From positions 1 through 57,748 of IMG/VR virus record IMGVR_UViG_3300042332_001032: 57,748 nt of DNA. One strand, 5' to 3'. The notes beneath the pieces were generated by a model, which was not told where the DNA came from, ran no database searches, and saw only the letters and a list, made by a program, of their open reading frames with translations. The translations under genes were made by a program, and so were the position numbers. This DNA is from a virus (taxonomy: Duplodnaviria; Caudoviricetes). Positions 1 to 57,748 of this stretch are shown here, piece by piece. Each line of letters begins with the position of its first letter. Position 1 is the first letter of the stretch.

Positions 1-191
1 TACTTGGTATCAGCATCCAAAAGGAAGACGGAGTCTTCCTTGCTACGCCACTGAAAGGTCTTTTCATTATTTGTTTTAGATCTATTTCCATTAAAGGGGT
101 TATTTTTATTTATCTTTTTTATTTATCTTTTGCAAGGCTGAGTTTCATCTGAGTGACTAAAGATCACTCAGCTTTCACTCAGTCCTGAAAT
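1..191 (-). mobile_element. Non-autonomous IS200/IS605-derived element A (5' part; truncated by window start)
   Basis: Reverse strand reads TTAC|ATTTCAGGACTGAGTG-AAAG-hairpin(CTGAGTGATCTTTAGTCACTCAG), near-identical to copies at 43848, 46120, 55175, 57579. Confidence 0.9.
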
Positions 192-274
192 GTAAGACCT
201 GGAGGTATAATAAGATCGCTTATATCTTTTGCATCTTTTTCAGTGTACGGTCTTCTATTGAATATATTTGACAT
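179..274 (-). pseudogene. 5' fragment of a gene interrupted by element A (MSNIFNRRPYTEKDAKDISDLIIPPGLT|FQD*)
   Basis: ATG overlaps the TAA of the upstream ORF (TAATG); the frame is open up to the TTAC junction and stops inside the element. Confidence 0.6.
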
Positions 275-630
275 TAGAAAGTACCTCCATCGAGATTAAA
301 CATATTAACCTTATCTGTACTTGCAGGTATAGTAAACGTTATTTGCTCAGTTGGATTATTCATAGTGAACATACTAAACGCGTCAGTGGTTAGGTCACTA
401 TCAATTACTTCTCTCCTGAGTAATAGGCTTCCGGAGTTAGTATTAATAAAGGTAGTGAGATCCTTGACATTAATAGTGCGTAATGCTTTTTGTATTTCGT
501 CTACATGGGTAGCAGTGAAGGGTATAGATGGTGGCTGGGGCACGAAGTCTAGAATTGGCGGTGGTACGTAATGAGCATCATTTGAAACACCACCGTAACC
601 TCCATAAGCTCCTGAGTAATTTTTACTCAT
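274..630 (-). CDS. Hypothetical virion protein, paralogous to the gp14 C-terminal extension
   Basis: 118 aa; PP..FTATH and terminal FNLDGGTF motifs shared with the gp14 extension. Confidence 0.7.
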   Translation of the reverse strand: MSKNYSGAYGGYGGVSNDAHYVPPPILDFVPQPPSIPFTATHVDEIQKALRTINVKDLTTFINTNSGSLLLRREVIDSDLTTDAFSMFTMNNPTEQITFTIPASTDKVNMFNLDGGTF

Positions 631-632
631 AA

Positions 633-696
633 CTAAAATTTTCCTCCATCTAAATTAAACAGATCATAATTACTGTCTTTTTTAATTTGCACGATA
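633..696 (-). pseudogene. Orphaned 3' end of gp14 (FIVQIKKDSNYDLFNLDGGKF*)
   Basis: Start-less frame just beyond the 419-bp cassette; aligns with the C-terminus of ORF 274..630. Confidence 0.65.
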
Positions 697-1112
697 AAAT
701 AAAAATTCAATCTAATCGAATGTTGCCATTCTAAATGAATCTAAAGCAAAATTAACTTTAGAATTCTTAGATTTGAATTTTCTGAAAACTGTTTCTTTCG
801 GAACAGAAACTCTATATTTCACTTTAAAGTTTTTTAACCAAGAATGTAACTCTTTCCAATCTTTGACTTCTGGTACTTCGGTTTGCTTCCATAGCTCCTC
901 TAAGTACGTTTTCGAAGGCAATTCTGGATAGAATTGTTTGTTTTTGGTTATTATCAACCTAAAACCTCTTTGTGCTATTTCGGCACTAGAAGCTAAAGGA
1001 TCTGGTAAATCTTTATGTAGAATATTTCCTATTGTAGAAGAATAAAATTGTTGATTTTTCATATAAGTTATTTATACGAATTTGTATTCAAATCAACATT
1101 CAGAAAATAATA
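694..1112 (-). mobile_element. 419-bp duplicated cassette, copy 1 (late promoter + 116-aa ORF)
   Basis: Near-identical to 23266..23684 with unrelated flanks. Confidence 0.75.
712..1062 (-). CDS. Hypothetical protein of the duplicated cassette
   Basis: 116 aa, preceded by TATAAATA; 3 substitutions versus copy 2. Confidence 0.8.
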   Translation of the reverse strand: MKNQQFYSSTIGNILHKDLPDPLASSAEIAQRGFRLIITKNKQFYPELPSKTYLEELWKQTEVPEVKDWKELHSWLKNFKVKYRVSVPKETVFRKFKSKNSKVNFALDSFRMATFD

Positions 1113-2020
1113 TCATCCTCTTCGTTTTCTTTAGTTTCAAGAGCAAATGTCTTAGATTCTTCATCAGTTTCGACAACCGTACTTGTCATTATGTTACCCA
1201 CATTTTGACCGAGGAAGAGGCTAGATGTATTATTTGAAGTTAGGATATTAGTTAATGTAGTATTGTGAGTAGCTGTAAAGGTCGAACTTGCTGGATACGG
1301 ATTACCGGGAGGTGGCTGCGGAGGTATAAAATGCCCTGCCATATTATTGCCATCAGTATCTTGATCGCTGTCGTAATAGTCGTATATACACTTCGCACTA
1401 TTATCTGCACTATCAGGGTACGGTTGAAATAGTTTTTCAGGGTTCTCACCACCAGATAAACGCCCGTAATCCCCGCCATCGTTAATCTGTATATTATTAG
1501 GTTCTGCATGCATACCAGGTTCGTATGAGTACTCCCAACGCTTACATTTTATATACCACACATAATGACCCATTAACGTATTCGTGAGCTCTAAATGCTG
1601 ATCATCGCGCTCTGTTATCTCATATATAGGAGCACCTCTAAACCCAGGTCTATCACCGTATCCACCAAATTCATGCATTTCAATAAGATCCCCGGCTTTA
1701 GGCTCTCTACCTGGACCGAGAGATTCAGAAAATGAAGATATATGCACGACTGCAGTCATGTCGCAATCAGCCATTATACCGAATTTTGAAAGCATTATAG
1801 AGTCATTTGTTATGTTTGTGAGCATTATCATCTCACCCACACTTTCAAAAGCCGACGTAGGGTCTTCTCCGTATATAAAATTATGACTAGTTAAGGTATA
1901 ACCGTTCGTGTAATATCTTATACTTGTACCAAAGTGCTCTATTTGCTCCCTCCACCACAAGCTAAAGTTGTTACGCTCATTTGCGTTTACATCTTTATTA
2001 AGATAACGTACCTTATTCAT
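1100..2020 (-). CDS. gp14: Neck protein gp14-like with C-terminal extension (truncated by cassette)
   Basis: Motifs IYGEDP, LSKFGI, PKAGDLI, CKRWEYSYE typical of T4-like gp14. Confidence 0.8.
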   Translation of the reverse strand: MNKVRYLNKDVNANERNNFSLWWREQIEHFGTSIRYYTNGYTLTSHNFIYGEDPTSAFESVGEMIMLTNITNDSIMLSKFGIMADCDMTAVVHISSFSESLGPGREPKAGDLIEMHEFGGYGDRPGFRGAPIYEITERDDQHLELTNTLMGHYVWYIKCKRWEYSYEPGMHAEPNNIQINDGGDYGRLSGGENPEKLFQPYPDSADNSAKCIYDYYDSDQDTDGNNMAGHFIPPQPPPGNPYPASSTFTATHNTTLTNILTSNNTSSLFLGQNVGNIMTSTVVETDEESKTFALETKENEEDDIIF

Positions 2021-2021
2021 G

Positions 2022-2504
2022 TTAATTTCCGAGATGCTTTGGTTTTTTAATCCATTTATTATAATACGGATGAAACACGTATTTATTTTTATCGAAATTT
2101 AATCTATTAACTGTTAATTGATAGTTAATAAAATGATTTGAATCTGTTAATTTTCTCTTATTAAGAGCTACTGTTGCGTTAATAAGACGTTCTTTTAATA
2201 CATCTTGTAAATTAGCTGTATTTAATTGCACTATGATATCAACAGTGCAATTACTTTCTGCATGTGGTAGTAGTACAGAGTCTACTATAGCGTAATCGAG
2301 TATTCTTGTATTCGTACCTATAGCTTCAATATCATTTAAATACTGTATGTCCCTCAATATATGCGTTCTCGCAGCAGGTAGTAGCTCAGGATCTCTGCTA
2401 TCTTCAAAAAATATAAAAACCCTAGGGTCAAGACTATTATCAGCAATAGGAATATGATGATATTTTAAATAGTTTTCTGTAAATATTTTTTCAAAGCGTT
2501 TCAC
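2022..2504 (-). CDS. Hypothetical protein
   Basis: ORF; start moved to the GTG after a TAAATA motif because the upstream part overlaps a terminator. Confidence 0.65.
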   Translation of the reverse strand: MKRFEKIFTENYLKYHHIPIADNSLDPRVFIFFEDSRDPELLPAARTHILRDIQYLNDIEAIGTNTRILDYAIVDSVLLPHAESNCTVDIIVQLNTANLQDVLKERLINATVALNKRKLTDSNHFINYQLTVNRLNFDKNKYVFHPYYNKWIKKPKHLGN

Positions 2505-2537
2505 TATAATATTTAAGCTCGTGTAATCTCTTTTTAC

Positions 2538-2574
2538 AAAAAAAAAAGCCTCATAACAAATATGAGGCTTTTTT
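2538..2574. terminator. Bidirectional intrinsic terminator
   Basis: A-tract GCCTCATA-loop-TATGAGGC T-tract. Confidence 0.85.
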
Positions 2575-2598
2575 AATATCAATATACTATTTCTTTAT

Positions 2599-2898
2599 GT
2601 GAACTACCGAACGACTAAAGATCGTTCGGCTTCAGAACATAAATGTTCTTTCTTTTTAGACACTTCATCGCTTGTGCTTTTAAATGAATTTAAAAGTCTT
2701 ATTTTAGCTCCATGTCTGTAATCGGCAGTTCCTGCCGATGAAACTCCGAAGTAGTTTCTTTGTGCCTTTGATTTACTTGGTATCAGCATCCAAAAGGAAG
2801 ACGGAGTCTTCCTTGCTACGCCACTGAAAGGTCTTTTTATTATTTGTTTTAGATCTATTTCCATTGAAGGGGTTATTTTTATTTATCTTTTTTATTTA
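2599..2898 (-). mobile_element. Non-autonomous element B: omegaRNA + right end, left end deleted
   Basis: Ends in GAAG-hairpin-TAGTTCAC; similarity to other copies stops at TAAATAAAAAAGATAAAT. Confidence 0.88.
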
Positions 2899-3686
2899 AA
2901 AAATTCACCAGGTTTAATGTCTGAAGTTTTAACTTTTAGATTCTTTGTATTTTGTAGTTCTGTATGACTCACATTTAATTTTTTAAGCTCTGGTTCGGCT
3001 TTACGTTTAATGTATTGACCGAGAGCGCTTTTTGGTTTTAAGTTACTTTTAACGACGTATTTCTGCTTCGTGTTAAAACCTGTACCTGATTTCATATTCT
3101 TCAACGGTACACCGTGATCTTCAACAGATTCTTTAACTTTATTTTCCGGTGCTTCTTCATTCCCCATTTCACCTTCAGTTGATTCTTCTTCAACCTCATC
3201 TTCTTCCTCAGTCGATTCTTCCCCTTCAGTTCCCTGAGCGTCATCTATTTTATTAAGAATATCGTTAAGAGAATCTACTACGCTACGTAAATCAGAAACT
3301 AGATCTGAAACTTCATCTTGCGTATTTTCAATTTCATCAGTCATCTCGTCTCCAGATGTAGGTACTTGAAAGTCCATATTGACGTTATTTGTAGGTTTAG
3401 CACCTTGTAGTTCCTCGTCTTCAAGGAGCGTAGATCTAAAGAGTGCTTCAAACGAATTAAAAGAGTCTGTTGTAAATTTCTTTTTATCTGTCGGGGTATG
3501 ACGTAGTTTAGCTTTTGAAGGACCGTCTCCTACAAGCTTCTTATCTTTACCGTTACCGATATCGAATTTTTTTGCTACGACGTTGTCTTTAGAGTGAGTT
3601 ACTTTCTTAGTAGCTTCTCCTCTTTTTTTGCCTTCCGAAAGAAGGATATCTTCATACGCGTTTGTTAGGTTAGAATTATTATTCAT
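2892..3686 (-). CDS. Hypothetical acidic/lysine-rich late protein (possible internal head protein)
   Basis: 264 aa; TATAAATA upstream; low complexity. Confidence 0.75.
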   Translation of the reverse strand: MNNNSNLTNAYEDILLSEGKKRGEATKKVTHSKDNVVAKKFDIGNGKDKKLVGDGPSKAKLRHTPTDKKKFTTDSFNSFEALFRSTLLEDEELQGAKPTNNVNMDFQVPTSGDEMTDEIENTQDEVSDLVSDLRSVVDSLNDILNKIDDAQGTEGEESTEEEDEVEEESTEGEMGNEEAPENKVKESVEDHGVPLKNMKSGTGFNTKQKYVVKSNLKPKSALGQYIKRKAEPELKKLNVSHTELQNTKNLKVKTSDIKPGEFFK

Positions 3687-8643: not shown

Positions 8644-10042
8644 GGTGAGTGGCTGAGAAATCTAGGCGATCTTTAGTCGTCTAGATGAATCAGCTAAAAT
8701 ATTTTTATAAATCTTAATATTTTTTGTAAAAAATACGTTCGTCTGAGATAAGTAATAATAGATGATCGGAAAAGTACAAGAACTAAAAGAGAACGAAATG
8801 CACAAAGCATTTAAGTTCCGTTTGCTTCCTACAAAGGAGCAGGAAGTTCTTTTGGCAAAGCATTTTGGCTGTTCAAGATTCATCTATAATCATTTTTTAG
8901 CTGAAAAACAGAAGCATTATTCGGAAAACAAAGAGACACTAAAATTCAATGTTTGTCAAAATATGCTTATAAAGCAGAAAAAGGACGAAGGTTATGATTG
9001 GCTTAAAGAAGTTAATTCTCAATGTTTAGTAGCGACATTGGTCAATTTAGAGACAGCATATACAAACTTTTTCAAGAAAAAATCTAAATTCCCTCGTTTT
9101 AAATCAAAAAAGAACAAAAATAGTTTCAATATTCCTCAACATGTTTCTTTGAAAGAACGTAACGTAGTTCAAATTCCAAAGTTCAAAGAAGGAATCAAAT
9201 TTGTTAAGCACAGAGAACTAAAAGGAGTTATTAAGAGCGCAACTGTTTCAAAGAATCCTTCTGGAAAATATTATATCTCTTTTCTTTGTGTTATAGAAAA
9301 ACCAACTAAACACAAAAAGACTGGAAAGAGCATCGGAATTGATTTAGGATTAAAGGATTTCATTATTACTTCTGAGGGACAAAGGTACTGTAATCCTAAG
9401 TTCACTAAAAAGTACGAGGTTAAGTTAGCAAGAAAACAAAGAATTTTAAGCAGAAAGGTAAAAGAATCGAAAGGAAGAGACAAAGCTCGTTTGAGCGTTG
9501 CAAAGGTACATGAGAAGATAACCAATTCTCGGAACGATATGCAACATAAAGTCTCCTCCAAGTTAGTAAGAGACTATGATCTGATTGCAATAGAAGACCT
9601 GAACGTGAAAGGAATGGTTAAGAACCATTGCTTAGCTAAGGCAATATCAGATGTAGCTTGGTCAAGCTTTGTGACCAAATTAAAATACAAAGCAGAATGG
9701 AACGGAAAAGAAGTGATTGTAATAGATCGTTTCTACCCGTCTTCCAAAACATGTAGTTGCTGTGATCACATCAAAGAGTCGCTTAGTCTCGATGAAAGGA
9801 CTTGGACTTGTTCTAAATGCAACACAATACATGACAGAGATGTTAATGCTTCGAAAAACATTTTAAGAAGAGCATTAGCAATTCAATCGGCAGGAACTGT
9901 CGATAACAGGAATGGAGCTAAGGTAAGACCAAAGGAGATCTCAAAGGTTTCTAGAGGCACTGGCGTTGAAGTTCTTAAAAAGAAGAATGGACGTAAGTAC
10001 ATTCTGAAGCCAGTAGGTCTTTAGTGTCTACAGGTAGTTCAC
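8644..10042 (+). mobile_element. IS200/IS605-family (IS1341-type, tnpB-only) element 1
   Basis: TTAA target, left hairpin with AAAT guide, tnpB, right hairpin with GAAG guide and TCAC end. Confidence 0.92.
8762..10024 (+). CDS. tnpB: RNA-guided endonuclease TnpB
   Basis: KAFKFRL N-terminus, RuvC GIDLG / IEDL / DRDVNA, CxxC..CxxC zinc ribbon; alternative start 8798. Confidence 0.97.
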   Translation: MIGKVQELKENEMHKAFKFRLLPTKEQEVLLAKHFGCSRFIYNHFLAEKQKHYSENKETLKFNVCQNMLIKQKKDEGYDWLKEVNSQCLVATLVNLETAYTNFFKKKSKFPRFKSKKNKNSFNIPQHVSLKERNVVQIPKFKEGIKFVKHRELKGVIKSATVSKNPSGKYYISFLCVIEKPTKHKKTGKSIGIDLGLKDFIITSEGQRYCNPKFTKKYEVKLARKQRILSRKVKESKGRDKARLSVAKVHEKITNSRNDMQHKVSSKLVRDYDLIAIEDLNVKGMVKNHCLAKAISDVAWSSFVTKLKYKAEWNGKEVIVIDRFYPSSKTCSCCDHIKESLSLDERTWTCSKCNTIHDRDVNASKNILRRALAIQSAGTVDNRNGAKVRPKEISKVSRGTGVEVLKKKNGRKYILKPVGL

Positions 10043-22809: not shown

Positions 22810-23265
22810 TTATTTAGCTAACCCCAGGTGTTTTTCTGTTAGAATTATAAACATTGAACCTTTTTTAGTAGCAAATTGCTGTGCTGCATCCCATTTAGCT
22901 CTATTCTTAACATATTCAGCTTGTCTTCTCAGTGATGATTTTATGTTACGAGTAGGTTTTGGTGGTATAGTTTGTACAGCAGGTTTAATTTCAACAAGAA
23001 ATTTTTTAAGGTTACCCTCTTTATCTCTCATTGTTATATTAAAGTCTACGAAGTATCTACTGATACGACCAGTTAAAGGGTTTTCGTAAGGGATTACAAC
23101 AGATTCAGATCCCCAAGAAATAATATTAGGATTGCTATCAAGGATTCTAGCCACAGATAATTCCCAGGATGATCTTAATAAGATCGGAAACGTACCCTTA
23201 TATTTTTCCGGAAATCGTGGTTGGAACACACTTTGTCTATACTTCTGAGTTCTTTTCTTGTTCAT
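22810..23265 (-). CDS. gp4: Head completion nuclease
   Basis: P..PEKYKG, RSSWE, WGSE, YFVDF, VEIKP, N.AKW.AA, F.ILTE. Confidence 0.95.
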   Translation of the reverse strand: MNKKRTQKYRQSVFQPRFPEKYKGTFPILLRSSWELSVARILDSNPNIISWGSESVVIPYENPLTGRISRYFVDFNITMRDKEGNLKKFLVEIKPAVQTIPPKPTRNIKSSLRRQAEYVKNRAKWDAAQQFATKKGSMFIILTEKHLGLAK

Positions 23266-23684
23266 ATAAAATAAAAATTCAATCTAATCGAATGATGACA
23301 TTCTAAATGAATCTAAAGCAAAATTAACTTTAGAATTCTTAGATTTGAATTTTCTAAAAACTGTTTCTTTCGGAACAGAAACTCTATATTTCACTTTAAA
23401 GTTTTTTAACCAAGAATGTAACTCTTTCCAATCTTTGACTTCTGGTACTTCGGTTTGCTTCCATAGCTCCTCTAAGTACGTTTTCGAAGGCAATTCTGGA
23501 TAGAATTGTTTATTTTTGGTTATTATCAACCTAAAACCTCTTTGTGCTATTTCGGCACTAGAAGCTAAAGGATCTGGTGAATCTTTATGTAGAATATTTC
23601 CTATCGTAGAAGAATAAAATTGTTGATTTTTCATATAAGTTATTTATACGAATTTGTATTCAAATTAACATTCAGAAAATAATA
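23266..23684 (-). mobile_element. 419-bp duplicated cassette, copy 2
   Basis: Near-identical to 694..1112; ends immediately before the gp4 ATG. Confidence 0.75.
23284..23634 (-). CDS. Hypothetical protein of the duplicated cassette
   Basis: 116 aa, TATAAATA upstream. Confidence 0.8.
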   Translation of the reverse strand: MKNQQFYSSTIGNILHKDSPDPLASSAEIAQRGFRLIITKNKQFYPELPSKTYLEELWKQTEVPEVKDWKELHSWLKNFKVKYRVSVPKETVFRKFKSKNSKVNFALDSFRMSSFD

Positions 23685-23689
23685 ACCTC

Positions 23690-24601
23690 TTATACAGGTG
23701 TTGTTGTAGGTGTCGGTGTTGGCGTAGGAGTCTCTGTCGGAGTCGGCGTCTCTGTCGGAGTCGGCGTCTCTGTAGGAGTCTGAGTTGGCGTCTCTGTAGG
23801 AGTCTGAGTTGGCGTCTCTGTCGGTGTCGGAGTTGGCGTCTCTGTAGGTGTCGGTGTTGGCGTCTCTGTCGGTGTCGGAGTTGGCGTCTCTGTAGGTGTC
23901 GGTGTTGGCGTAGGAGTCTCTGTAGGAGTCTCTGTCAGTGTCGGAGTTGGCGTCTCTGTAGGAGTTACTGTAGGAGTTGGTGTAATGGAAGGAGTTGATG
24001 TGAGTGTCGGTGACTGAGAAGGATATGCAGAAATTGGAGGTAATTTAAATATATCTCTACTGTACCCTAATATTAAAGAACCTGTATTAAAATAAAATAA
24101 TGTATATCCTTTATTATCTGATGCTGATAACGAAATACTTCCCCCCACATACACGCTATCACTAGAGGTAACGACTATATTATTGCTTACAGGGGAAACT
24201 GATATCATACACTGAGAAATATCAGTCGGTACAAAGGTATTAGTTACAGATACTACAGCAAAAGAGTCAAATTGTATGTCGAAGAAATTAACAGATGTAT
24301 CTACTATTACATAATCCCTATAACGTAACGCGCGTACAGTCTCATTATCTGTATTAACATATATATACGAAGGATCGTCTTGAGGTACACGCATATCTAC
24401 CCTGAAATAGATATCAGAATAACTAAAAATCTCTGCAGCTATATTTTTACCGTAATCAGATAATAACCTCCAGTCTCCCTCTGGTATTGTTGTATCAAAA
24501 CCACTATCTGATCTCTGTAAATCTACAGATAGAGCAGAAACAAAGGTTGAATATTTTGCTAAAAACTGCTTTACGCGTGTGTTTTTTTCTGTAGCTCCCA
24601 T
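23690..24601 (-). CDS. Virion-associated protein with Pro/Thr-rich C-terminus
   Basis: 303 aa ending in ~100 aa of TP(T/E) repeats. Confidence 0.8.
23693..24012 (-). repeat. Pro-Thr coding tandem repeat (TPTETP)
   Basis: Degenerate 18/24-bp units such as GGCGTCTCTGTAGGAGT. Confidence 0.9.
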
Positions 24602-27988: not shown

Positions 27989-29388
27989 ATAAATAAGGAC
28001 TGAGTGAAAACCCATAAGTCTTTAGCCTATGGGATGAAACTCAGCCAAAATATTTTTAAATTATTTTTCATTTTTACTCTAAAAAGTAAACCGTCTGAGA
28101 TAAGTATAATAGATGATTGGAAAAGGACAAGAACTAAAAGAGAACGAAATGCACAAGGCATTTAAGTTCCGTTTGCTTCCTACAAAGGAGCAAGAAGTTC
28201 TTCTGGCCAAGCACTTTGGTTGCGTAAGGTTCATTTATAATCATTTCCTCAGTGAAAAACAAAAGCACTTTTTAGAAAATAAAACCACACCGAACTTCAA
28301 TCAATGTGCAGGAAATTTGGTAGCAAAGAAAAAAGAAGAAGGTTATGAATGGTTAAAGGAAGTTAATTCTCAAGTTCTTATATCAACTTTAATGAACTTG
28401 GAGACAGCTTATGGTAACTTTTTTAGAAAAAAATCAAAGTTCCCTAAATTCAAATCCAAAAAGAATAAAAACTCTTTTCAAATACCTCAACATGTTTCTT
28501 TGAAAGAGAAGAACGTGGTTCAAATTCCAAAGTTCAAAGAAGGTTTGAAATTCATTAAGCACAGAGAACTCAAAGGAACAATTAAATCGGCTACTATCTC
28601 CAAGAATCCTACAGGTAAATACTACATTTCATTTCTTTGTGTTGTAGAAAAACCAACTAAGCACAAAAAGACAGGGAAAAGTATTGGAATTGATTTAGGG
28701 TTAAAGGATTTTATCATTACTTCTGAAGGACAAAGATATTGTAATCCAAAGTTTTTAAAGAAGTACGAGGTTAAGTTAGCAAGAAAACAAAGAATTTTAA
28801 GCAGAAAAGAAAAAGGATCAAAAGGAAGAGACAAAGCTCGTTTGAGCGTCGCTAATGTACATGAGAAGATAACCAATTCTCGTAACGATATGCAACATAA
28901 AGTTTCCTCCAAGTTAGTAAGAGACTATGATCTGATTGCAATAGAAAACCTGAACGTGAAAGGAATGGTTAAGAACCATAAACTATCTAAGGCAATATCA
29001 GACGTAGCATGGTCAAGCTTTGTGACCAAATTAAAGTACAAAGCACAATGGAACGGAAAAGAAGTGATTGTAATAGATCGCTTTTATCCTTCCAGTAAAA
29101 CATGTAGTTGCTGTGATCATATCAAAGAAAGCCTTTCATTAGATGAAAGAACCTGGACTTGTTCTAAATGCAACACAATACATGATAGAGATGTTAATGC
29201 TTCAAAGAATATTTTGCGTAGAGCATTAGCAATTCAATCGGCAGGAACTGTCGATAACAGGAATGGAGCTAAGGTAAGACCAGAAGTTGTTTCTAAAGCA
29301 ACTAAAGGCACTGGCGATGAAGTTCTTAAAAAGAAGGGTAGAAAATATGCCCTGAAGCCGAACGATCTTTAGTCGTTCGGTAGTTCAC
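27989..29388 (+). mobile_element. IS200/IS605-family (IS1341-type, tnpB-only) element 2
   Basis: TTAT target, left hairpin with AAAA guide, tnpB, right hairpin and TCAC end. Confidence 0.92.
28113..29372 (+). CDS. tnpB: RNA-guided endonuclease TnpB
   Basis: RuvC GIDLG / IENL / DRDVNA and zinc ribbon intact; close paralog of 8762..10024. Confidence 0.97.
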   Translation: MIGKGQELKENEMHKAFKFRLLPTKEQEVLLAKHFGCVRFIYNHFLSEKQKHFLENKTTPNFNQCAGNLVAKKKEEGYEWLKEVNSQVLISTLMNLETAYGNFFRKKSKFPKFKSKKNKNSFQIPQHVSLKEKNVVQIPKFKEGLKFIKHRELKGTIKSATISKNPTGKYYISFLCVVEKPTKHKKTGKSIGIDLGLKDFIITSEGQRYCNPKFLKKYEVKLARKQRILSRKEKGSKGRDKARLSVANVHEKITNSRNDMQHKVSSKLVRDYDLIAIENLNVKGMVKNHKLSKAISDVAWSSFVTKLKYKAQWNGKEVIVIDRFYPSSKTCSCCDHIKESLSLDERTWTCSKCNTIHDRDVNASKNILRRALAIQSAGTVDNRNGAKVRPEVVSKATKGTGDEVLKKKGRKYALKPNDL

Positions 29389-42899: not shown

Positions 42900-43847
42900 A
42901 TGGGATTAGAGTACACTAAACAACCACAATTTTTTGAAAATAGCGTTACCGTACAAGGGGCACTATCTAGCGTACAGCTACAAGCTAATGCGTTTATAAG
43001 CAGTACAGCTAGAGTTACGGAAATATCAGCTGTTTCATTATCAGGTACTTTTTACGGAGACGGTACAAAGCTCGAGGGTGTATTTAGTAATCAAAGCACT
43101 ATAAACGCTTTTCTAACAAGTCTCTCATCAAAGCCGTTTTACCCGTCATTGTCTGTAACATCATTTTCAGCAAATAATGTATTTGCTGTTAGCGGTATAT
43201 TCATGAATATAGCTGCAACATCTCTTTCAGGTACGTTTTACGGAGATGGTACAAAGCTAGCTGGTGTATATTCCTCTCAAGGTGCAATTAATACATTTGT
43301 TGTAAACAGCAGCGCAGATTCTAAACTAAACTCTCTTTCAGCAAAATTTATAAACACAGAGTATGTAGGTAATCCGCTATTTAGAACACTCTCCTCATCT
43401 GTAATAACAACAAATACCTTAAACAGCGCAACAACGTTCAGTGGAGTGTATTACGGAGATGGTAGAAACCTACAAGGTATCTTTGCAAATCAAAATGTTA
43501 TAAACTCAACAGTTGCTCAACTCACAGGAGACGCTGTCGTGAGAACGCTCTCAGCAGTAAGTGGCACGTTTATAAACATCTCTGCAACTTCTCTTTCAGG
43601 TACATTTTATGGTGATGGGTCAAATCTACTAGGTGTTACAACTGGTGGTAGAAGATTTTTTTATGAAACTATAGGTAACGATACATACACCTATTCAGGC
43701 TCTACACCATTTTACACAACTTCACCAAGTGCTTCGGCGTGGAAGATTGTTAAAGTGCAATATAGCTTAGATGGAGGAGTGGTAGGGCTAAGTGCAAGAA
43801 ACAACGTACCATGGACAAATAGAGCAACTCTTATATATTACCCATAA
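42900..43847 (+). CDS. Fibre-like repeat protein
   Basis: Four SG..YGDG..L.G repeats. Confidence 0.75.
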   Translation: MGLEYTKQPQFFENSVTVQGALSSVQLQANAFISSTARVTEISAVSLSGTFYGDGTKLEGVFSNQSTINAFLTSLSSKPFYPSLSVTSFSANNVFAVSGIFMNIAATSLSGTFYGDGTKLAGVYSSQGAINTFVVNSSADSKLNSLSAKFINTEYVGNPLFRTLSSSVITTNTLNSATTFSGVYYGDGRNLQGIFANQNVINSTVAQLTGDAVVRTLSAVSGTFINISATSLSGTFYGDGSNLLGVTTGGRRFFYETIGNDTYTYSGSTPFYTTSPSASAWKIVKVQYSLDGGVVGLSARNNVPWTNRATLIYYP

Positions 43848-44200
43848 GTGAACTACCGAGCGACTAAAGATCGTTTGGCTTCAGAACATAAATGTTCTTT
43901 CTTTTTAGACACTTCATAGCCGTTGCTTTTAAATTGCTTTAAAAGTCTTATGTCAGCTCCATGCCTGTAATCGGCAGTTCCTGCCGATGAACATCCATAG
44001 TATGTTCTTTTTGCCTTTGATATACTTGGTATCAGCATCCAAAAGGAAGACGAAGTCTTCCTTGCTACGCCACTGAAAGGTCTTTTCATTATTTGTTTTA
44101 GATCTATTTCCATTGAAGGGGTTATTTTTATTTATCTTTTGCAAGGCTGAGTTTCATCTGAGTGACTAAAGATCACTCAGCTTTCACTCAGTCCTAATAA
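43848..44200 (-). mobile_element. Non-autonomous omegaRNA-bearing element C
   Basis: Both end hairpins present; right end abuts the TAA of 42900..43847; left junction uncertain by ~4 nt. Confidence 0.9.
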
Positions 44201-44211
44201 ATAAAATTACC

Positions 44212-46077: not shown

Positions 46078-46112
46078 AAAAAGCCGAGATCATAAAGATC
46101 TCGGCTTTTTTT
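46078..46112 (+). terminator. Intrinsic terminator
   Basis: GCCGAGATC-loop-GATCTCGGC-T7. Confidence 0.9.
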
Positions 46113-46119
46113 ATTTTAT

Positions 46120-46479
46120 ATTTCAGGACTGAGTGAAAGCTGAGTGATCTCTAGTCACTCAGATGAAACTCAGCCTTGCAAAAGATAAATAAAAAAGATA
46201 AATAAAAATAACCCCTTCAATGGAAATAGATATTTTAAATTATATAAAAAGACCTTTCAGTGGCGTAGCTAGATTAATTTCTATAGGATGCTGATACCAA
46301 GCAAATCAAAGGCAAAAAGAACATACTATGGATGTTCATCGGCAGGAACTGTCGATTACAGACATGGAGCTGACATAAGACTTTTGAATTCATTTAAAAG
46401 CAACGGCTATGAAGTGTCTAAAAAGAAAGAACATTTATGTTCTGGAAGCCGAACGATCTTTAGTCGTTCGGTAGTTCAC
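46120..46479 (+). mobile_element. Non-autonomous omegaRNA-bearing element D
   Basis: TTAT|ATTTCAGG...TAGTTCAC, 360 bp; between terminator and ligase promoter. Confidence 0.92.
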
Positions 46480-46487
46480 AAAAATAC

Positions 46488-50100: not shown

Positions 50101-50182
50101 GGGTAGTTCGGATAGTGGCAATTCCGGGAGACTGTAAATCTCTTGCCTTTCGGCTTCGCTGGTTCGAGTCCAGCACTGCCCA
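50101..50182 (+). tRNA. tRNA-Tyr(GTA)
   Basis: Cloverleaf, loop CTGTAAA, long variable arm. Confidence 0.92.
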
Positions 50183-50210
50183 GATCTTTTTAGCTTAAAT
50201 AAAATTATAC

Positions 50211-50312
50211 TGCGGGTTACAGTTCTGGGAACTGAGGGGTCTCATAGAGTTGCTTTGCTGAGGCGATTCTAGAAGCCTCTTTAGGAGAGTTCGATTCTCT
50301 CACCCGCTACCA
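50211..50312 (+). tRNA. tRNA-Met(CAT), initiator-like, with 27-nt insertion in the anticodon loop
   Basis: T1:T72 mismatch, encoded CCA; removing 50247-50273 restores GGGGT-CTCATAA-GCCTC. Confidence 0.8.
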
Positions 50313-50326
50313 TTTTTCTTTTAGAT

Positions 50327-50398
50327 GCCAGTATAGCACAGTGGTAGTGCAATGCTTTTGTAAAGCATGGGTCGGGGGTTCGAATCCCTCTACTGGCT
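50327..50398 (+). tRNA. tRNA-Thr(TGT)
   Basis: Cloverleaf, ATGCT-TTTGTAA-AGCAT. Confidence 0.92.
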
Positions 50399-50466
50399 GA
50401 TTCTCTTCTTAAAAATATCTGGCTAGTGCCTAAAAAGAATCTATAATAAGAAACATAAATTTAAAC

Positions 50467-50550
50467 GGTCGAGTGGCGAAATGGCGAAACGCAAGGGACT
50501 TAAAATCCCTTACATTAGAAACACTGTGGGTTCGAGTCCCACCTCGACTA
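50467..50550 (+). tRNA. tRNA-Leu(TAA)
   Basis: Cloverleaf, AGGGA-CTTAAAA-TCCCT, long variable region. Confidence 0.92.
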
Positions 50551-50573
50551 GTTTTCCTTACAATAACCAAACC

Positions 50574-51233
50574 TTGATCTCCTACAACAAATCCTATTTT
50601 CCGAATACTGAGTTTATCTTCGCACTCTCCGGGGGTATTGATAGTGTAGCTGCTTGTCATCTTCTAAAGAAGAAAAACTTTAATTTCATTGCAGTACATG
50701 TCAACAATAAATTCATTGAACAAGATGATGATATTGCTGAAGATGTTCAAAGGTTCTGCTACAAAGAAGAGATTCCGCTCCGTACTATTATCACTAAAGA
50801 GAAGTATGTTAAAGGTAGCAAAGAAGACTTTTGTAGAAACGTACGTTATAAAGCTCTAAGAGAGTATGCAGTAAGTCAAGAGGTTGATTTCATTTGCACG
50901 GCACATCACTTAGATGACTGTGTAGAATCGTACTTCTTAAACTTCCTTAAAGGGCATACAGAGTTTGTACCGATTCATTTTTACTGCAAATATCCAGAGG
51001 CTACAATCTTTCGACCATTTTTACTGAATAAAAAGCTTGAGTTTGCCTCATATGCAGCCCATAATAACCTCACACAATACGTTAAAGAAGATGAACTAAA
51101 TTCTGATTTAACGCTTATGAGGAACTGGACTAGAAAAGTAGTTCTTCCTGTAATTGATAAGAAGTATAAAGGTTTGCATAAAGTAGTTTTCAAAAAGATG
51201 AAGAATCATTTGGATAGTGTAGTGAAAGAGTAA
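50574..51233 (+). CDS. tilS: tRNA(Ile)-lysidine synthetase (catalytic domain only)
   Basis: ALSGG.DS, E...R..RY..L, TAHHLDD..E, RP.L...K, D..N......RN..R; probable TTG start downstream of tRNA-Leu. Confidence 0.9.
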   Translation: MISYNKSYFPNTEFIFALSGGIDSVAACHLLKKKNFNFIAVHVNNKFIEQDDDIAEDVQRFCYKEEIPLRTIITKEKYVKGSKEDFCRNVRYKALREYAVSQEVDFICTAHHLDDCVESYFLNFLKGHTEFVPIHFYCKYPEATIFRPFLLNKKLEFASYAAHNNLTQYVKEDELNSDLTLMRNWTRKVVLPVIDKKYKGLHKVVFKKMKNHLDSVVKE

Positions 51234-51246
51234 GTAATTTTTATAA

Positions 51247-51324
51247 GCCTGTGAAGCTTAAGTAGTTATAAGCACCTGTTTCATAAACTGGAGATAGTGG
51301 GAGCATGCCCCACGACAGGCACCA
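51247..51324 (+). tRNA. tRNA(CAT), probably Ile2 (lysidine)
   Basis: GCCTGT/ACAGGC-ACCA, loop TTCATAA, atypical T-loop; adjacent to tilS. Confidence 0.75.
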
Positions 51325-51360
51325 TTTAAAAAGATGCATTGTAAGAGTAGTTTATATACC

Positions 51361-52407
51361 TTACAATGCATCTTTTTTTCTTTTCCAATTATTAGGAATC
51401 GGTATTCCCATATCTTCCATAGCAAATTTTAAAAATCTATCATACCCTCCCAATTCTTTAAAACCTAATACTCTACCAGTTCGGGACTTTGAATACTTCT
51501 TCTCTATACATTCTACAATAAGGTCTCTTTTAGAGATAAAAAAATTAACTAATGTACTATTATTTCTTTCATGCTGCCTCCAACAATCATCGCTACAAAA
51601 CTTCTTACCATAGCGTTTATAAGGTATATTAAAAATATTACCGCAATTTATACACTCTCTCGTAAGTTCTTCTTGCGACACCTTAGTGTACTCAATAACC
51701 GGTAACACTGAAAGATCGATCTTACAATCACGAACTCTCTCTTCAATACGTTGCTTTATTAATTCAAAATAAGGTATCCCTAATTCGTTCTTAAAACCTG
51801 TCATTCTAGAAACATCTAATACATGTAGCTCTATGTTATTATTCTTGCAAAATTCTGACTTTTTTGTATCATTTGCAATTGTACATTTAAATACTTTTTC
51901 GCCGTGTATTGGTTTGTAATGATGTATACCATTTATTTCAAATGCTAACTTTAAGGATGGTATATAAATATCTAATTCTAAATCAGATCCATTCTCGGTT
52001 CTATCGTTAAAAAGCATTTTTAATGTCGGAAACGTTTCTTTTAAATTCTTTTCAATAAAATATTCAATTTTAGATTTTCTAGTACCGTGTGTTTTATGTT
52101 TATTGTTAAAAACTGCACTACAAGACATTCCACAAAATATATTACCTGGGCGACCTAAACGTTTTTGCTTTCTTGAAAATGTTAATTTACCGAAAGAATC
52201 TTTATATTGTATAATAGTGTTACATTGCTTACATGTCAGAGGAGCTTTTAGATATTCAGCTTCAACGATTGTCGATAGTTTTTTAGAGCCACATACATAC
52301 TCAGGTTTATGTACAACGCTATGAGAATTAAGAGCTCTTTTTGAATTAAATGTTTTATTACAGATTTCGCAACAAAACTCGTTATAAGTATTATTATATA
52401 TTTTCAT
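51361..52407 (-). CDS. Putative PD-(D/E)xK homing endonuclease with C2H2 and zinc-ribbon motifs
   Basis: CEIC...H...H, SKIE, LELDIYIPSLKLAFEINGIHHY; paralog of 49120..49887. Confidence 0.8.
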   Translation of the reverse strand: MKIYNNTYNEFCCEICNKTFNSKRALNSHSVVHKPEYVCGSKKLSTIVEAEYLKAPLTCKQCNTIIQYKDSFGKLTFSRKQKRLGRPGNIFCGMSCSAVFNNKHKTHGTRKSKIEYFIEKNLKETFPTLKMLFNDRTENGSDLELDIYIPSLKLAFEINGIHHYKPIHGEKVFKCTIANDTKKSEFCKNNNIELHVLDVSRMTGFKNELGIPYFELIKQRIEERVRDCKIDLSVLPVIEYTKVSQEELTRECINCGNIFNIPYKRYGKKFCSDDCWRQHERNNSTLVNFFISKRDLIVECIEKKYSKSRTGRVLGFKELGGYDRFLKFAMEDMGIPIPNNWKRKKDAL

Positions 52408-52421
52408 GTTTGTGTTAATTT

Positions 52422-52492
52422 TTAAGAGAGGACAGCTAGCTGTTTGTGTCTAGTTTCTTTAAAGGTACGAACTTTAAAGATTACTCTCTTAA
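52422..52492 (-). other. Structured 5' leader of the HEG
   Basis: 9-bp closing stem TTAAGAGAG/CTCTCTTAA enclosing two hairpins, between TAAATA and the ATG. Confidence 0.5.
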
Positions 52493-52562
52493 TATATTTA
52501 TTTCAAAAAGCTAATTTTCACTATTGACATCTTCCATTACACAAAATAAATAAGTTTTATAT

Positions 52563-52644
52563 TCTCCGTTAGTAGAATGGTAAATACACCCGACTGTTAA
52601 TCGGGAGCTGAAAGGCACTCTTGGTTCAAGTCCAAGACGGAGAG
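52563..52644 (+). tRNA. tRNA-Asn(GTT) with long variable arm
   Basis: TCTCCGT/ACGGAGA-G, CCCGA-CTGTTAA-TCGGG, variable arm GCTGAAAGGC. Confidence 0.88.
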
Positions 52645-54977: not shown

Positions 54978-55187
54978 ATGCTTGAAATAAAAAACGGAAA
55001 CGAGACAATTACAATATCCAGCCAATCCGATTGTATTGCAATTGTGCACAGGGTTTATAGCCCGTACAAGGATTTTGCTGAAACAACAGCGTTTGCAATC
55101 GACAAAGAAGACTTGTTGGACATATTAAGACCGTATGCAAGATTAGTTAAAAACGAGCGCAATGAGGTATCTACATTTCAGGACTGA
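54978..55187 (+). CDS. Hypothetical protein (last codons supplied by element E)
   Basis: 69 aa; GGAGG RBS. Confidence 0.65.
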   Translation: MLEIKNGNETITISSQSDCIAIVHRVYSPYKDFAETTAFAIDKEDLLDILRPYARLVKNERNEVSTFQD

Positions 55188-55542
55188 GTGAAAGCCGAAG
55201 GATCTTTAGTCACTCAGATGAAACTCAGCCTTGCAAAAGATAAATAAAAAAGATAATTTAAAATAACCCCTTTAATGGAAATAGATCTAAAACAAAACAA
55301 CAAAAAGACCTTTCAGTGGCGTAGCAAGGAAGACTTCGTCTTCCTTTTGGATGCTGATACCAAGTATATCAAAGGCACAAACTAGTTACTATGGAACTAG
55401 ATCGGCAGGAACTGCCGATTACAGGCATGGAGCTGACATAAGACTATTAAAGCAATTTAAAAGCACAAGCGATGAAGTGTCTAAAAAGAAAGAACATTTA
55501 TGTTCTAGAAGCCGAACGATCTTTAGTCGTTCGGTAGTTCAC
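55175..55542 (+). mobile_element. Non-autonomous omegaRNA-bearing element E
   Basis: CTAC|ATTTCAGG...TAGTTCAC|ATG; removal restores an ATGA gene overlap. Confidence 0.92.
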
Positions 55543-55731
55543 ATGACAACAACTGAATACGATTTAATGTGCTGCTTTGAACAAGCGCATGATGCTCTAG
55601 TAGCAGCTGCAAGGATTGCTCATCTTGAAAATCATCCAGAGGCTACAGCAATCTCCGAGCTCATTGATACACTAGAAGACATTGATTTTAAGGTATGTGA
55701 TAAGGTATCATATAATGAAGGTAACAAATGA
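55543..55731 (+). CDS. Hypothetical protein
   Basis: True ATG directly follows element E. Confidence 0.65.
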   Translation: MTTTEYDLMCCFEQAHDALVAAARIAHLENHPEATAISELIDTLEDIDFKVCDKVSYNEGNK

Positions 55732-57404: not shown

Positions 57405-57602
57405 ATGAAAAAGAAACCAGAATTAGAATTGTTCAGCCCGACTCAAGAGGGAATCATTGTTCCTCTGTCAAAATACCTAAAACAAATGTCCGAGTTCGCT
57501 AAAACCGAATGGCCGGGCATCAACATTACGGAATCAAAAATCAAGGAAATCTGGAAGTTAGTAGCTTCAAATATTTACATTTCAGGGCTGAGTGAAAGCT
57601 GA
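57405..57602 (+). CDS. Hypothetical protein, 3' end interrupted by element F
   Basis: Frame crosses the TTAC junction and stops inside the element. Confidence 0.55.
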   Translation: MKKKPELELFSPTQEGIIVPLSKYLKQMSEFAKTEWPGINITESKIKEIWKLVASNIYISGLSES

Positions 57603-57748
57603 GTGATCTTTAGTCACTCAGCTTTCACTCAGCCTTGCAAAAGATAAATAAAAAAGATAAATAAAAATAACCCCTTTAATGGAAATAGATCTAAAACAAA
57701 TAATAAAAAGACCTTTCAGTGGCGTAGCTAGATTAATTTCTATAGGAT
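57579..57748 (+). mobile_element. Non-autonomous element F (5' part; truncated by window end)
   Basis: TTAC|ATTTCAGGGCTGAGTG-AAAG-hairpin; interior matches element D type. Confidence 0.9.

What the first reader, a model, noticed from the sequence alone, without database searches (positions are those of the whole stretch)
694..1112. Unrecognised 419-bp mobile cassette, present twice, that has split gp14
Seen: 694-1112 and 23266-23684 are near-identical. Each has a TATAAATA late promoter and a 116-aa ORF in which I recognise no transposase, recombinase or nuclease motif, and there are no clear terminal inverted repeats. Both copies are bounded by TATTATTTT...TTTTAT. Copy 1 terminates gp14 at DDIIF*, and the missing tail (FIVQIKKDSNYDLFNLDGGKF*) lies on the far side, so this is a true insertion. 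Inference: a small mobile element of unknown type, possibly specific for a TATTATTTTTAT-like site, or a deletion derivative of a larger element.
Basis: partly seen in the sequence, partly recalled or inferred. Interest (0 to 1): 0.75.

Follow-up and report, generated by a model that had tools for sequence, protein, structure and literature searches.

The report
Miniature TnpB-type transposon splitting phage gp14
The 419-bp repeat is a stripped-down copy of a TnpB/IS607-type transposon that keeps only its two ends, a promoter and its guide-RNA-like part, and it sits at two places in a lake T4-like phage, where one copy cuts the tail off a neck-protein gene.

Summary
Window 694-1112 and 23266-23684 differ at 7 of 419 bases. 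Both copies and their junctions appear in contigs of public lake metagenomes. Copy 1 separates the last 20 codons of gp14 from the gene.

The element type can now be named. The 116-aa ORF is about 91% identical to the last ~110 residues of 428-aa proteins. These belong to a zinc-finger-less TnpB/Cas12f-like family (D-E-D RuvC triad; Foldseek E=5e-12 to Cas12f). The family is common in large viral contigs, and 26 of 87 sources searched also carry an IS607-type serine recombinase.

The cassette keeps the family's left end (TATTAT...GTATAAATA, a late-promoter-like box) and right end (...TTTATTTTA). Both ends recur in relatives at unrelated sites. It also keeps the whole ~240-nt 3' segment, which folds into a conserved, covarying RNA structure of the omega-RNA kind. 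About 315 codons, including RuvC motifs I and II, are missing.

It is therefore a non-autonomous mini-element, analogous to a PATE, that spread after the deletion. No partner nuclease or transposase lies in the window, which is only 27% of the genome. Whether the RNA still guides a nuclease in trans is inferred, not shown.

Verdict: a new variant of a known kind, of moderate interest.

The parts
694..1112 (-). Cassette copy 1 (mini-element), inserted in the 3' part of gp14
   Evidence: junction-bridging contigs in X1, X2 and X4
23266..23684 (-). Cassette copy 2, inserted in the short spacer between the stop of the TP-rich ORF (+GAGGT) and the ATG of the gp4-like gene
   Evidence: copy-2 flanks seen as loose ends in X1 and X3 contigs; relatives have a 0-5 nt spacer there
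1063..1112 (-). Left end (LE): begins TATTAT and contains GTATAAATA (1069-1077), a promoter-like box 6 nt before the ATG
   Evidence: LE block aligns with the LE of L083, L103, L135 and L080 (there it precedes a serine-recombinase gene); flanks are unrelated; gene-start architecture of this phage
712..1062 (-). 116-aa ORF: remnant of the last ~110 codons (RuvC-III motif plus C-terminal region) of a ~428-aa TnpB-like gene
   Evidence: 91% identical to P0154 residues ~319-428; no Pfam, PHROG or NCBIfam hit alone
695..937 (-). Conserved structured-RNA (omega-RNA-like) segment, 8 helices, ending at the right end
   Evidence: RNAalifold and pair counts; covariance model R1 match 232 bits, model positions 1-238 of 238; family-wide covariation; no structure in the segment just upstream
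694..711 (-). Right end (RE) terminus ...ATTGAATTTTTATTTTA(T)
   Evidence: Same terminus next to unrelated flanks in L150, L003, L149, L080, L083, L103, L101, L135 and L140
23284..23634 (-). 116-aa ORF of copy 2 (3 synonymous and 3 non-synonymous differences from copy 1)
23267..23509 (-). Structured-RNA segment of copy 2
   Evidence: R1 match 230.9 bits
1100..2020 (-). gp14-like neck gene, truncated at residue 306; the last residues and the stop come from the cassette border
633..693 (-). Displaced 3' tail of gp14 (20 codons plus stop, other frame), no start codon of its own
   Evidence: 8 of 11 identical to the C-terminus of L006 gp14
22810..23265 (-). gp4-like head-completion gene whose ATG directly abuts the RE of copy 2
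   Evidence: PF08722 4.7e-18 and PHROG 218 3.9e-43; sequence
274..630 (-). 118-aa ORF downstream, paralogous to the C-terminal extension of gp14 (same ..FNLDGGTF ending); context only

Best explanation
The cassette is a miniature, non-autonomous derivative of an IS607-like / OMEGA-type element that lives in T4-like and other large phages.

The full-length element has a left end that begins TATTAT and carries a TATAAATA late-promoter-like box. In some copies a serine-recombinase tnpA follows. Next comes a ~420-450-aa zinc-finger-less TnpB/Cas12f-like RuvC nuclease gene. The last ~240 nt of that gene, together with the right end (...TTTATTTTA), encode a conserved structured RNA of the omega-RNA kind.

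An internal deletion removed about 315 codons, including RuvC motifs I and II. It left LE plus promoter, the RNA-coding 3' quarter and the RE. Both window copies share the same deletion junction, so the deletion came first and the 419-bp unit then spread.

Shown: the homology, both discrete ends, the conserved covarying structure, the real insertion into gp14, and persistence in several samples.

Inferred:
(a) Transcription from the LE box yields scaffold RNA that runs into the flank (the gp14 tail, or the gp4 start), as an omega-RNA guide would.
(b) A cognate full-length nuclease and/or a serine recombinase encoded elsewhere (the unsequenced 73% of the genome, or a co-infecting phage) serves the unit in trans. 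This could be by transposition at a TA dinucleotide and/or by RNA-guided cutting of cassette-free alleles followed by recombinational copying (homing).
(c) The 116-aa peptide is a by-product and cannot cut DNA.
For: Homology:
- phmmer over 1.84 billion representatives gives 191 hits at E<=1e-3. Of the 150 listed, 80 are >=380 aa with the match at their C-terminus.
- Four 428-aa proteins are 93-94% identical over 95% of the ORF (alignment).

Family nature:
- In 32 full-length members D205, E281 and D345 are invariant, as is the aYSSxIGN motif, and there is no Cys4.
- The AF2 model has pLDDT 89.3.
- Foldseek gives 60 PDB matches at E<=1e-3, almost all Cas12/TnpB-type chains. Best are AsCas12f (5.2e-12), ISDra2 TnpB (8.2e-8) and mimivirus Fanzor2 (8.6e-8).
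- Weak sequence links: TIGR01766 at 2.9e-6; Cas12f profile at 0.022.

IS607 link:
- A ~200-aa Resolvase+HTH protein lies directly upstream in 26 of 87 sources by tblastn. Pfam PF00239 scores 1e-21 and 4e-16 on the two tested. L080, from the cassette's own subclade, is one of these.

Ends:
- The RE is identical next to unrelated flanks in 11 sequences. Of the 61 model matches, 47 end in TA and 22 in ATTTTA.
- The LE block TATTAT..GTATAAATA is shared by 6 sequences with unrelated flanks.

RNA:
- In 11 sequences, 14 of 40 pairs are compensatory, with covariation 0.339 against 0.144 shuffled and <=0.108 slid.
- In 61 model matches, all on the gene strand at gene 3' ends, 37 of 40 pairs are compensatory, 89.8% of cells are paired, and covariation is 0.442 against 0.155 shuffled and <=0.111 slid. 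G-U pairs are frequent, which fits sense-strand RNA.
- The 140 nt just upstream in the same genes show no structure (-2.07 kcal/mol).
- The cassette RNA has an MFE z-score of -3.26.

Promoter: [TC]ATAAATA lies 5-15 nt before an ATG-started ORF at 12 of 22 sites in the window.

Other deletion derivatives exist: P0005 and P0007 and L135.

Literature, passages read:
- IS607 elements lack TIRs and TSDs, end in a dinucleotide equal to the target, and have short subterminal repeats (PMC6188088).
- TnpB drives homing of IS605 and IS607 elements, and PATEs often encode omega-RNAs served in trans (PMC10055086, PMC10690162).
Against: - No full-length partner, no serine recombinase and no Y1 transposase is present in the 57.7-kb window.
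- No DNA of the 428-aa parent could be fetched, so the deletion junction is not mapped to the base.
- No transcript evidence and no cassette-free allele were available.
- The wide alignment A5 is fitted to the model, and the structure was derived from A4, so both pair counts lean towards the structure.
- Retention of the 3' end by other derivatives is partly ascertainment, because my query was the 3' end.
- The family fails the curated Pfam and NCBIfam thresholds for TnpB, and no Rfam family matches the RNA.
- TATAAATA is not over-represented overall: 14 sites against 9.85 +/- 2.96 expected.
- In one distant subclade (L077/L078/L081/L099) similarity starts at the ATG itself, so the LE described here is not general to the family.
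- The 3:3 synonymous:non-synonymous count between the copies is too small to say whether the peptide is constrained.
Confidence: 0.8

Rival explanations
1. Inert relic. The cassette is a decaying fragment of a TnpB-like element with no remaining activity. The second copy arose by ectopic recombination or gene conversion rather than by the element's own machinery, and the RNA structure is merely inherited.
For: No partner genes in the window. The ORF lacks RuvC I and II. The tail of the peptide changes freely between the window and L150. The contig L150 shows the cassette being eroded further, by fusion to a fragment of an unrelated tnpB.
Against: Two copies at 98.3% identity share exact element-type borders at unrelated sites, and a third context exists in L150. 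Both authentic ends, a promoter-like box at the spacing used by this phage's genes, and the complete structured segment are retained. The insertion-bearing gp14 allele is seen in runs of different studies.
Confidence: 0.3
2. The 116-aa protein is the functional product. For example, it could be a late-expressed RNA-binding or dominant-negative fragment that modulates full-length TnpB-like nucleases of competitors.
For: An intact ORF in both copies, with a promoter-like box and ATG at the spacing typical of genes in this phage. The ATG appears to have been brought into frame by small indels relative to full-length genes (alignment).
Against: By comparison with the model of the full-length relative and the ORF's start point, I read the fragment as lacking the core beta-sheet of the RuvC fold. 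No family of free-standing proteins of this length was found: the short hits are contig-end fragments or other deletion forms. The C-terminal residues vary between copies and L150.
Confidence: 0.1
3. A site-specific element of another kind (homing-endonuclease gene, intron or IStron) that targets a TATTATTTTTAT-like site.
For: Both copies are bounded by T/A-rich strings. T4-like phages are rich in homing-endonuclease genes, and a GIY-YIG-like ORF lies on L150 (my reading of its sequence; it has no Pfam hit).
Against: No HNH, GIY-YIG or LAGLIDADG match. No group I or II intron in Rfam at gathering or E<=1. The boundary strings are the element's own termini in relatives. Cassette-free gp4 junctions of relatives lack such a site.
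Confidence: 0.03
4. Assembly artefact: a repeat wrongly placed into gp14.
For: Short-read metagenome assemblies can misjoin at repeats. The window's own ends lie in another repeat family.
Against: Independent Logan contigs bridge the junctions in X1, X2 and X4. The two copies differ at 7 positions, and both sets of flanks are recovered.
Confidence: 0.02

Closest known systems
IS607-family insertion sequences (IS607, IS1535, ISC1926; serine-recombinase TnpA plus TnpB)
   Same: No terminal inverted repeats and no target duplication. The same dinucleotide sits at both termini. Short repeated subterminal motifs are present (GATT(T)GAAT-type in LE and RE). A serine recombinase with an N-terminal HTH lies directly upstream of the TnpB-like gene in 26 of 87 sources. 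An RNA structure overlaps the gene's 3' end and RE. Family features were taken from passages of PMC6188088 and PMC10690162.
   Different: The termini are TA, not GG. The nuclease lacks the zinc finger and misses the curated TnpB HMM thresholds. The LE carries a T4-type late-promoter-like box. The host is a virulent-type phage. The window copies have lost tnpA and three quarters of tnpB.
PATEs and other omega-RNA-bearing non-autonomous IS200/IS605 derivatives
   Same: Protein-less or protein-dead mini-elements that keep the ends and the guide-RNA-coding part. They must be served in trans by TnpA and TnpB (stated in PMC10055086, passages read). The same window also holds PATE-like remnants of a canonical TnpB lineage.
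   Different: PATEs belong to Y1-transposase (hairpin-ended, ssDNA) elements. This unit belongs to a serine-recombinase-associated lineage without terminal hairpins, and it keeps a translatable 116-aa remnant.
TnpB / Cas12f / Fanzor2 RNA-guided nucleases
   Same: The fold and the D-E-D RuvC triad of the full-length relatives. The guide-RNA-like structure lies at the 3' end of the gene.
   Different: No C4 zinc finger or TNB domain (PF07282 is not hit). Zinc-finger-less TnpB branches, some enriched in viruses, are mentioned in PMC10691335 (passages read). The largest one described there (RIIIr-4) has His at RuvC-III, whereas this family keeps Asp.
Free-standing homing endonuclease genes of T4-like phages, and trans-homing of defunct ones (mobE / I-TevIII)
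   Same: Selfish cassettes sit between or inside phage genes and spread in co-infection. A defunct element can be carried along by a nuclease encoded elsewhere (PMC2790892; only the search listing and the start of the abstract were seen).
   Different: Those nucleases recognise DNA by protein. Here recognition would be RNA-guided, which is inferred and untested.
IStrons (IS607/IS605 elements fused to group I introns)
   Same: TnpB-type elements that can sit inside genes (PMC10690162, passages read).
   Different: No intron signature in the cassette, so gp14 is not expected to be restored by splicing.

Membership tests
TnpB/Cas12-type (OMEGA) RNA-guided nuclease | RuvC-like fold with a D-E-D catalytic triad | tested here: met
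   Met for the full-length relatives: invariant D205, E281 and D345 in 32 sequences; Foldseek best hits are Cas12f, TnpB and Fanzor2. The cassette ORF itself keeps only the RuvC-III Asp region, so it is a fragment, not a nuclease.
TnpB/Cas12-type (OMEGA) RNA-guided nuclease | Passing the curated sequence models (Pfam OrfB_IS605 / Cas12f1-like_TNB; NCBIfam guided_TnpB) | tested here: not met
   No Pfam hit for the 435-, 428-, 449- or 417-aa members. TIGR01766 scores 27.7 bits against a cut-off of 32, and NF040570 scores 13.6 against 100. Membership rests on fold and motifs.
TnpB/Cas12-type (OMEGA) RNA-guided nuclease | C4 zinc finger between RuvC-II and RuvC-III | tested here: not met
   No conserved Cys in alignment A2. 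PF07282 hits only the two canonical tnpB genes elsewhere in the window.
TnpB/Cas12-type (OMEGA) RNA-guided nuclease | Structured guide RNA (omega-RNA) encoded over the gene's 3' end and the right end | tested here: met
   Conserved covarying structure confined to the last ~240 nt (negative control). Expression, processing and guide use are not testable here.
TnpB/Cas12-type (OMEGA) RNA-guided nuclease | RNA-guided, TAM-dependent DNA cleavage | not testable with these tools
   Needs biochemistry. No TAM could be derived from the few defined left flanks.
IS607-family transposon | Serine-recombinase TnpA (HTH plus resolvase catalytic domain) adjacent to tnpB | tested here: inconclusive
   Present next to 26 of 87 family sources, including L080 of the same subclade. 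Absent from the cassette and from the window.
IS607-family transposon | No terminal inverted repeats and no target-site duplication | tested here: met
   No terminal inverted repeat. Flanks of the two copies and of L150 are unrelated apart from one ambiguous T.
IS607-family transposon | Identical dinucleotide at both termini and at the target (GG in IS607) | tested here: inconclusive
   The LE starts with TA in 6 of 6 sequences and the RE ends with TA in 11 of 11 close sequences. No empty target was recovered, so the target dinucleotide is unseen.
Non-autonomous (MITE/PATE-like) derivative | Both element ends kept, interior deleted, and the same deletion in several copies | tested here: met
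   LE and RE are kept. About 315 codons are missing relative to the 428-aa relatives. The two copies are collinear with 7 mismatches.
Free-standing homing endonuclease gene | HNH, GIY-YIG, LAGLIDADG or similar nuclease domain | tested here: not met
   No Pfam, PHROG or NCBIfam match.
Group I/II intron or IStron | Intron ribozyme core | tested here: not met
   Rfam at gathering threshold over the whole window finds only 5 tRNAs. At E<=1 over 1-3000 there is no match in the cassette.

The most novel reading that the evidence does not exclude
The cassette is a working 'guide-only' selfish element of a virulent phage. From its own late promoter it makes an omega-RNA whose guide is the neighbouring phage gene sequence (the gp14 tail, or the gp4 start). 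With a zinc-finger-less TnpB-like nuclease supplied in trans by the same or a co-infecting phage, it cuts cassette-free alleles in competitors and is copied in by recombination. This would be an RNA-guided counterpart of T4 homing-endonuclease trans-homing, in a phage that carries about ten OMEGA-type units of two unrelated TnpB lineages within 58 kb.
Probability: 0.3. Interest if true: 0.75.

Novelty: new variant of a known kind. Interest (0 to 1): 0.55.

Why it matters
- It turns an 'unknown mobile cassette' into a defined case: a mini-element of a TnpB-like lineage that current domain libraries do not recognise, and whose guide-RNA-like structure is not in Rfam.
- It indicates that OMEGA-type elements in lytic T4-like phages carry phage late-promoter-like boxes in their left ends.
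- These elements can insert into structural genes and shed their nuclease while keeping the RNA part.
- If the RNA is still used in trans, phage-phage competition by RNA-guided homing becomes directly testable.
- The compact (~420-450 aa) zinc-finger-less nucleases, with a defined scaffold model, would then be new candidates for biochemical study.
- For annotation, it warns that gp14 here is truncated by an insertion, and that 116-aa 'hypothetical proteins' of this kind are gene remnants.

Tried and rejected
Searches that found nothing:
- blastn (distant mode) of 400-1500 against 50,697 phage records: no match.
- Pfam, PHROGs and NCBIfam on the 116-aa ORF: nothing.
- The near-length protein search gave only 4 fragments. 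The 'longer' search was needed to find the 428-aa relatives.
- Fetching the DNA of the 428-aa parent from viral contigs: none found.
- Rfam: no family for the cassette RNA.
- No RNA holder was listed among the sequencing runs.
- No contig joining across the cassette (empty site) appeared in the four runs laid. The 34-nt partial matches at 666-699 in X1 and X3 were left unexplained.

Ideas rejected:
- Homing-endonuclease gene, intron or IStron, target duplication of a 12-mer, and assembly artefact (see the rival explanations).
- Assignment to clade RIIIr-4 of PMC10691335. That clade has His at RuvC-III, whereas Asp is kept here.

Points that weaken or limit claims:
- The TATAAATA count over the whole window is not significantly high. 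Only its position relative to ATGs is informative.
- The 'VDLNTN' reading in another frame of the LE looked like RuvC-I. I dropped it as chance because the LE aligns to non-coding LEs of relatives.
- The TA-crossover model and the TAM could not be tested with so few defined flanks.

Tools not used: complex prediction, the second structure job and the protein-atlas search. None would have changed the verdict.

Full report
**1. Observation**

The record is a 57,748-nt IMG/VR viral contig, estimated 27% complete. It carries T4-type genes: a gp14-like neck gene, a gp4-like head-completion gene and a portal-like gene.

Window 694-1112 recurs at 23266-23684 and nowhere else in the record, at 98% identity, E=1.4e-211. 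I count 7 mismatches in 419 nt. Similarity ends abruptly on both sides.

On the minus strand each copy has a 116-aa ORF, preceded at 6 nt by TATAAATA.

gp14 (1100-2020, minus) stops at residue 306, inside the cassette border. Its closest relative (L006, 73% identical) is 326 aa and ends ..FDLFNLDGSTF. Those residues align to window 668-636, beyond the cassette and in another frame. Removing 419 nt (or 416) puts the two parts into one frame.

Logan contigs of four lake-water runs were laid on 200-2500.
- X1 bridges both junctions of copy 1. It shows the copy-2 flanks as loose ends exactly at 694 and 1112. X1 may be the source sample.
- X2, from another study, bridges the 694 junction without a difference.
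- X4 bridges the 1112 junction.
- No contig skipping the cassette was seen.

So the repeat, the insertion and both copies are real.

**2. What the ORF is**

Alone it matches no Pfam, PHROG or NCBIfam family.

An exhaustive phmmer search found 191 proteins at E<=1e-3. Of the 150 listed, 80 are >=380 aa, and these match with their last ~100 residues.

A search among longer proteins found four 428-aa proteins that are 93-94% identical over 95% of the ORF. In the alignment the ORF covers residues ~319-428 of P0154 at 91% identity.

Thirty-two full-length members share invariant D (GIDLNPN), E (vEDL) and D (DPi.AS), plus aYSSxIGN, and have no conserved cysteines.

An AlphaFold2 model of a 435-aa member (pLDDT 89.3) matches Cas12f (E=5.2e-12), Cas12k, ISDra2 TnpB (8.2e-8) and mimivirus Fanzor2 (8.6e-8). 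TM-scores are low (0.3-0.44), as expected for multi-domain proteins.

Sequence-only links are weak: TIGR01766 scores 27.7 bits, below its cut-off, and the Cas12f profile gives E=0.022.

The family is thus a zinc-finger-less TnpB/Cas12f-like lineage. The ORF holds only its RuvC-III motif and C-terminal region.

**3. The element and its ends**

The family occurs in 78 loci of viral contigs, many over 100 kb, and often several times per contig. Copies within one contig share DNA only over the gene plus short flanks.

A ~200-aa protein with an HTH and a resolvase domain (PF00239, 1e-21 and 4e-16 on the two tested) lies directly upstream in 26 of 87 sources by tblastn (some sources are duplicates of one contig). 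This is the IS607 arrangement.

The right end is discrete. The two window copies, L150 (a third context, upstream of a DNA ligase gene), L003, L149, L080, L083, L103, L101, L135 and L140 all stop at ...TTTATTTTA next to unrelated DNA. Among the 61 model matches, 47 end in TA and 22 in ATTTTA.

The left end is discrete too. The window copies, L083, L103, L135 and L080 begin a shared block at TATTAT. The block contains ..AAAT(T)(C)GTATAAATA, and unrelated DNA precedes it. The same LE precedes different contents:
- L080: the recombinase gene.
- L083 and L103: the full nuclease gene.
- L135: a 5'-truncated 235-aa gene.
- The window: the last quarter only.

The cassette therefore keeps both authentic ends and lacks about 315 codons. 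The exact junction is unresolved because the parent's DNA could not be fetched. Homology to full-length genes begins about 20 nt upstream of the ATG. The ATG itself corresponds to an out-of-frame ATG within Tyr-Glu codons of relatives.

IS607 elements also end in a dinucleotide equal to the target, GG in that case (PMC6188088, passages read). Here both termini are TA, so a TA target is my inference.

The T/A-rich boundary strings are element termini, not a target. Cassette-free relatives have only 0-5 nt between the upstream stop and the gp4 start (29 of 46 loci printed).

**4. The RNA**

RNAalifold on the last 240 nt of 11 elements predicts 8 helices. These include a long-range stem that pairs a segment inside the ORF with the RE just before its terminus. 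Of 40 pairs, 14 have compensatory changes. Pair counts give 94.1% paired and covariation 0.339, against 0.144 for shuffles (0 of 500 reach it) and <=0.108 for slid partners.

A covariance model built from this alignment finds 61 matches in 82 sources. All are on the gene strand at the 3' ends of the nuclease genes. Both window copies match over the whole model, at 232 and 231 bits. On that alignment 37 of 40 pairs have compensatory changes, and covariation is 0.442 against 0.155 shuffled and <=0.111 slid. Many G-U pairs appear, which points to structure in the sense-strand RNA.

Two caveats apply. The structure was derived from the first alignment, and the second alignment is fitted to the model.

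As an internal control, the 140 nt immediately upstream in the same genes give essentially no consensus structure (-2.07 kcal/mol). The cassette RNA folds better than all 100 shuffles (z=-3.26). Rfam has no matching family.

A structured RNA over the gene's 3' end and the RE is the known layout of TnpB omega-RNAs, with the guide read from the flank (PMC10055086 and PMC10690162, passages read).

**5. Expression signal**

TATAAATA is not over-represented overall: 14 sites against 9.85 +/- 2.96 expected. However, [TC]ATAAATA lies 5-15 nt before the ATG of an ORF of at least 40 aa at 12 of 22 sites. Two of those are the cassettes and two refer to one gene. The cassette therefore has the same start architecture as the phage's genes.

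**6. Mechanism**

Shown:
- The origin by internal deletion.
- Spread after the deletion, since both copies share one junction.
- Retention of LE, promoter box, RNA segment and RE.

Inferred:
- The unit is transcribed late into scaffold RNA that runs into the flank.
- It depends on a cognate nuclease and/or recombinase encoded elsewhere.

The window contains none of these partners, but it is only about a quarter of the genome.

The peptide lacks RuvC I and II, so it cannot be the nuclease. The two copies differ by 3 synonymous and 3 non-synonymous changes, too few to judge constraint.

Loss of the gp14 tail is probably tolerated. Of 62 gp14 relatives, 50 are 225-269 aa and lack the whole C-terminal extension, 11 have long forms and 1 is cut by a contig end. 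A 118-aa paralogue of the extension lies just downstream.

**7. Comparison and novelty**

The unit works like the omega-RNA-bearing PATEs of IS200/IS605 and like IS607 elements. It differs in five ways:
- the nuclease lineage (no zinc finger, below the curated thresholds);
- TA termini;
- a phage late-type box in the LE;
- residence in a T4-like phage;
- a retained translatable remnant.

Zinc-finger-less, virus-enriched TnpB branches are mentioned in PMC10691335. Whether this lineage is among them I could not tell, because the supplements were closed.

My four literature searches listed no paper describing such mini-elements in T4-like phages. This is a limited search, not proof of absence.

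Verdict: a new variant of a known kind.

Noticed in passing
window 8762-10024 (+) and 28113-29372 (+): Two full-length canonical tnpB genes (420 and 419 aa). Both have the zinc-ribbon TNB domain (PF07282, E=9.7e-28 and 1.8e-27). They are 84% identical in DNA over ~1.3 kb. They sit among structural genes of the phage. No Y1 or serine transposase is present in the window.
   Followed up: partly
window 1-195, 2596-2898, 43845-44207 (minus); 46107-46484, 55170-55543, 57566-57748 (plus): A second repeat family of ~300-370 nt with strong hairpins. It shares a 44-nt core (86%) with the 3' end of the canonical tnpB genes, and its pseudo-ORF resembles their C-terminus. It looks like PATE-like, 3'-end (omega-RNA) remnants of an IS605-type lineage. 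Both contig ends fall inside copies of it, and two copies flank the gp14 block.
   Followed up: partly
L150:1-125 (relative contig): A 5'-truncated copy of the 419-bp cassette is fused to a fragment of a canonical tnpB on the opposite strand. The fragment shows the same ..NLETAYGNFFRKKSKFP.. motif as the window's canonical TnpBs. A GIY-YIG-like ORF (my reading of its sequence; no Pfam hit) lies 1.7 kb downstream. Mobile elements appear to be piling into one another.
   Followed up: partly
window, 22 sites (e.g. 21345, 47777, 49900, 34677, 22809, 15648, 3703): [TC]ATAAATA lies only 5-15 nt upstream of the ATG at 12 of 22 sites. This leaves no room for a leader with a Shine-Dalgarno sequence, and suggests leaderless or near-leaderless late mRNAs in this phage.
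   Followed up: partly
window 23690-24601 (minus), repeats at 23681-24028: A 303-aa ORF whose C-terminal third is a long Thr-Pro/Glu-Thr-Pro repeat, encoded by 12-nt tandem units. It lies immediately upstream of cassette copy 2.
   Followed up: no
P0005, P0007 (database proteins); L135:4932-5639; L140: Other internally deleted or 5'-truncated forms of the same TnpB-like family, each with a different junction and each keeping the 3' end. L135 keeps the same LE and RE, and its RE abuts the ATG of the next gene, as in window copy 2.
   Followed up: partly
window 666-699: Low-depth contigs in X1 and X3 match only these 34 nt (3 differences) and continue into unrelated sequence on both sides. This is an unexplained related junction, possibly another variant of the gp14-tail/RE border.
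   Followed up: no
window 50101-52644 (+): A cluster of five tRNA genes (Rfam RF00005).
   Followed up: no
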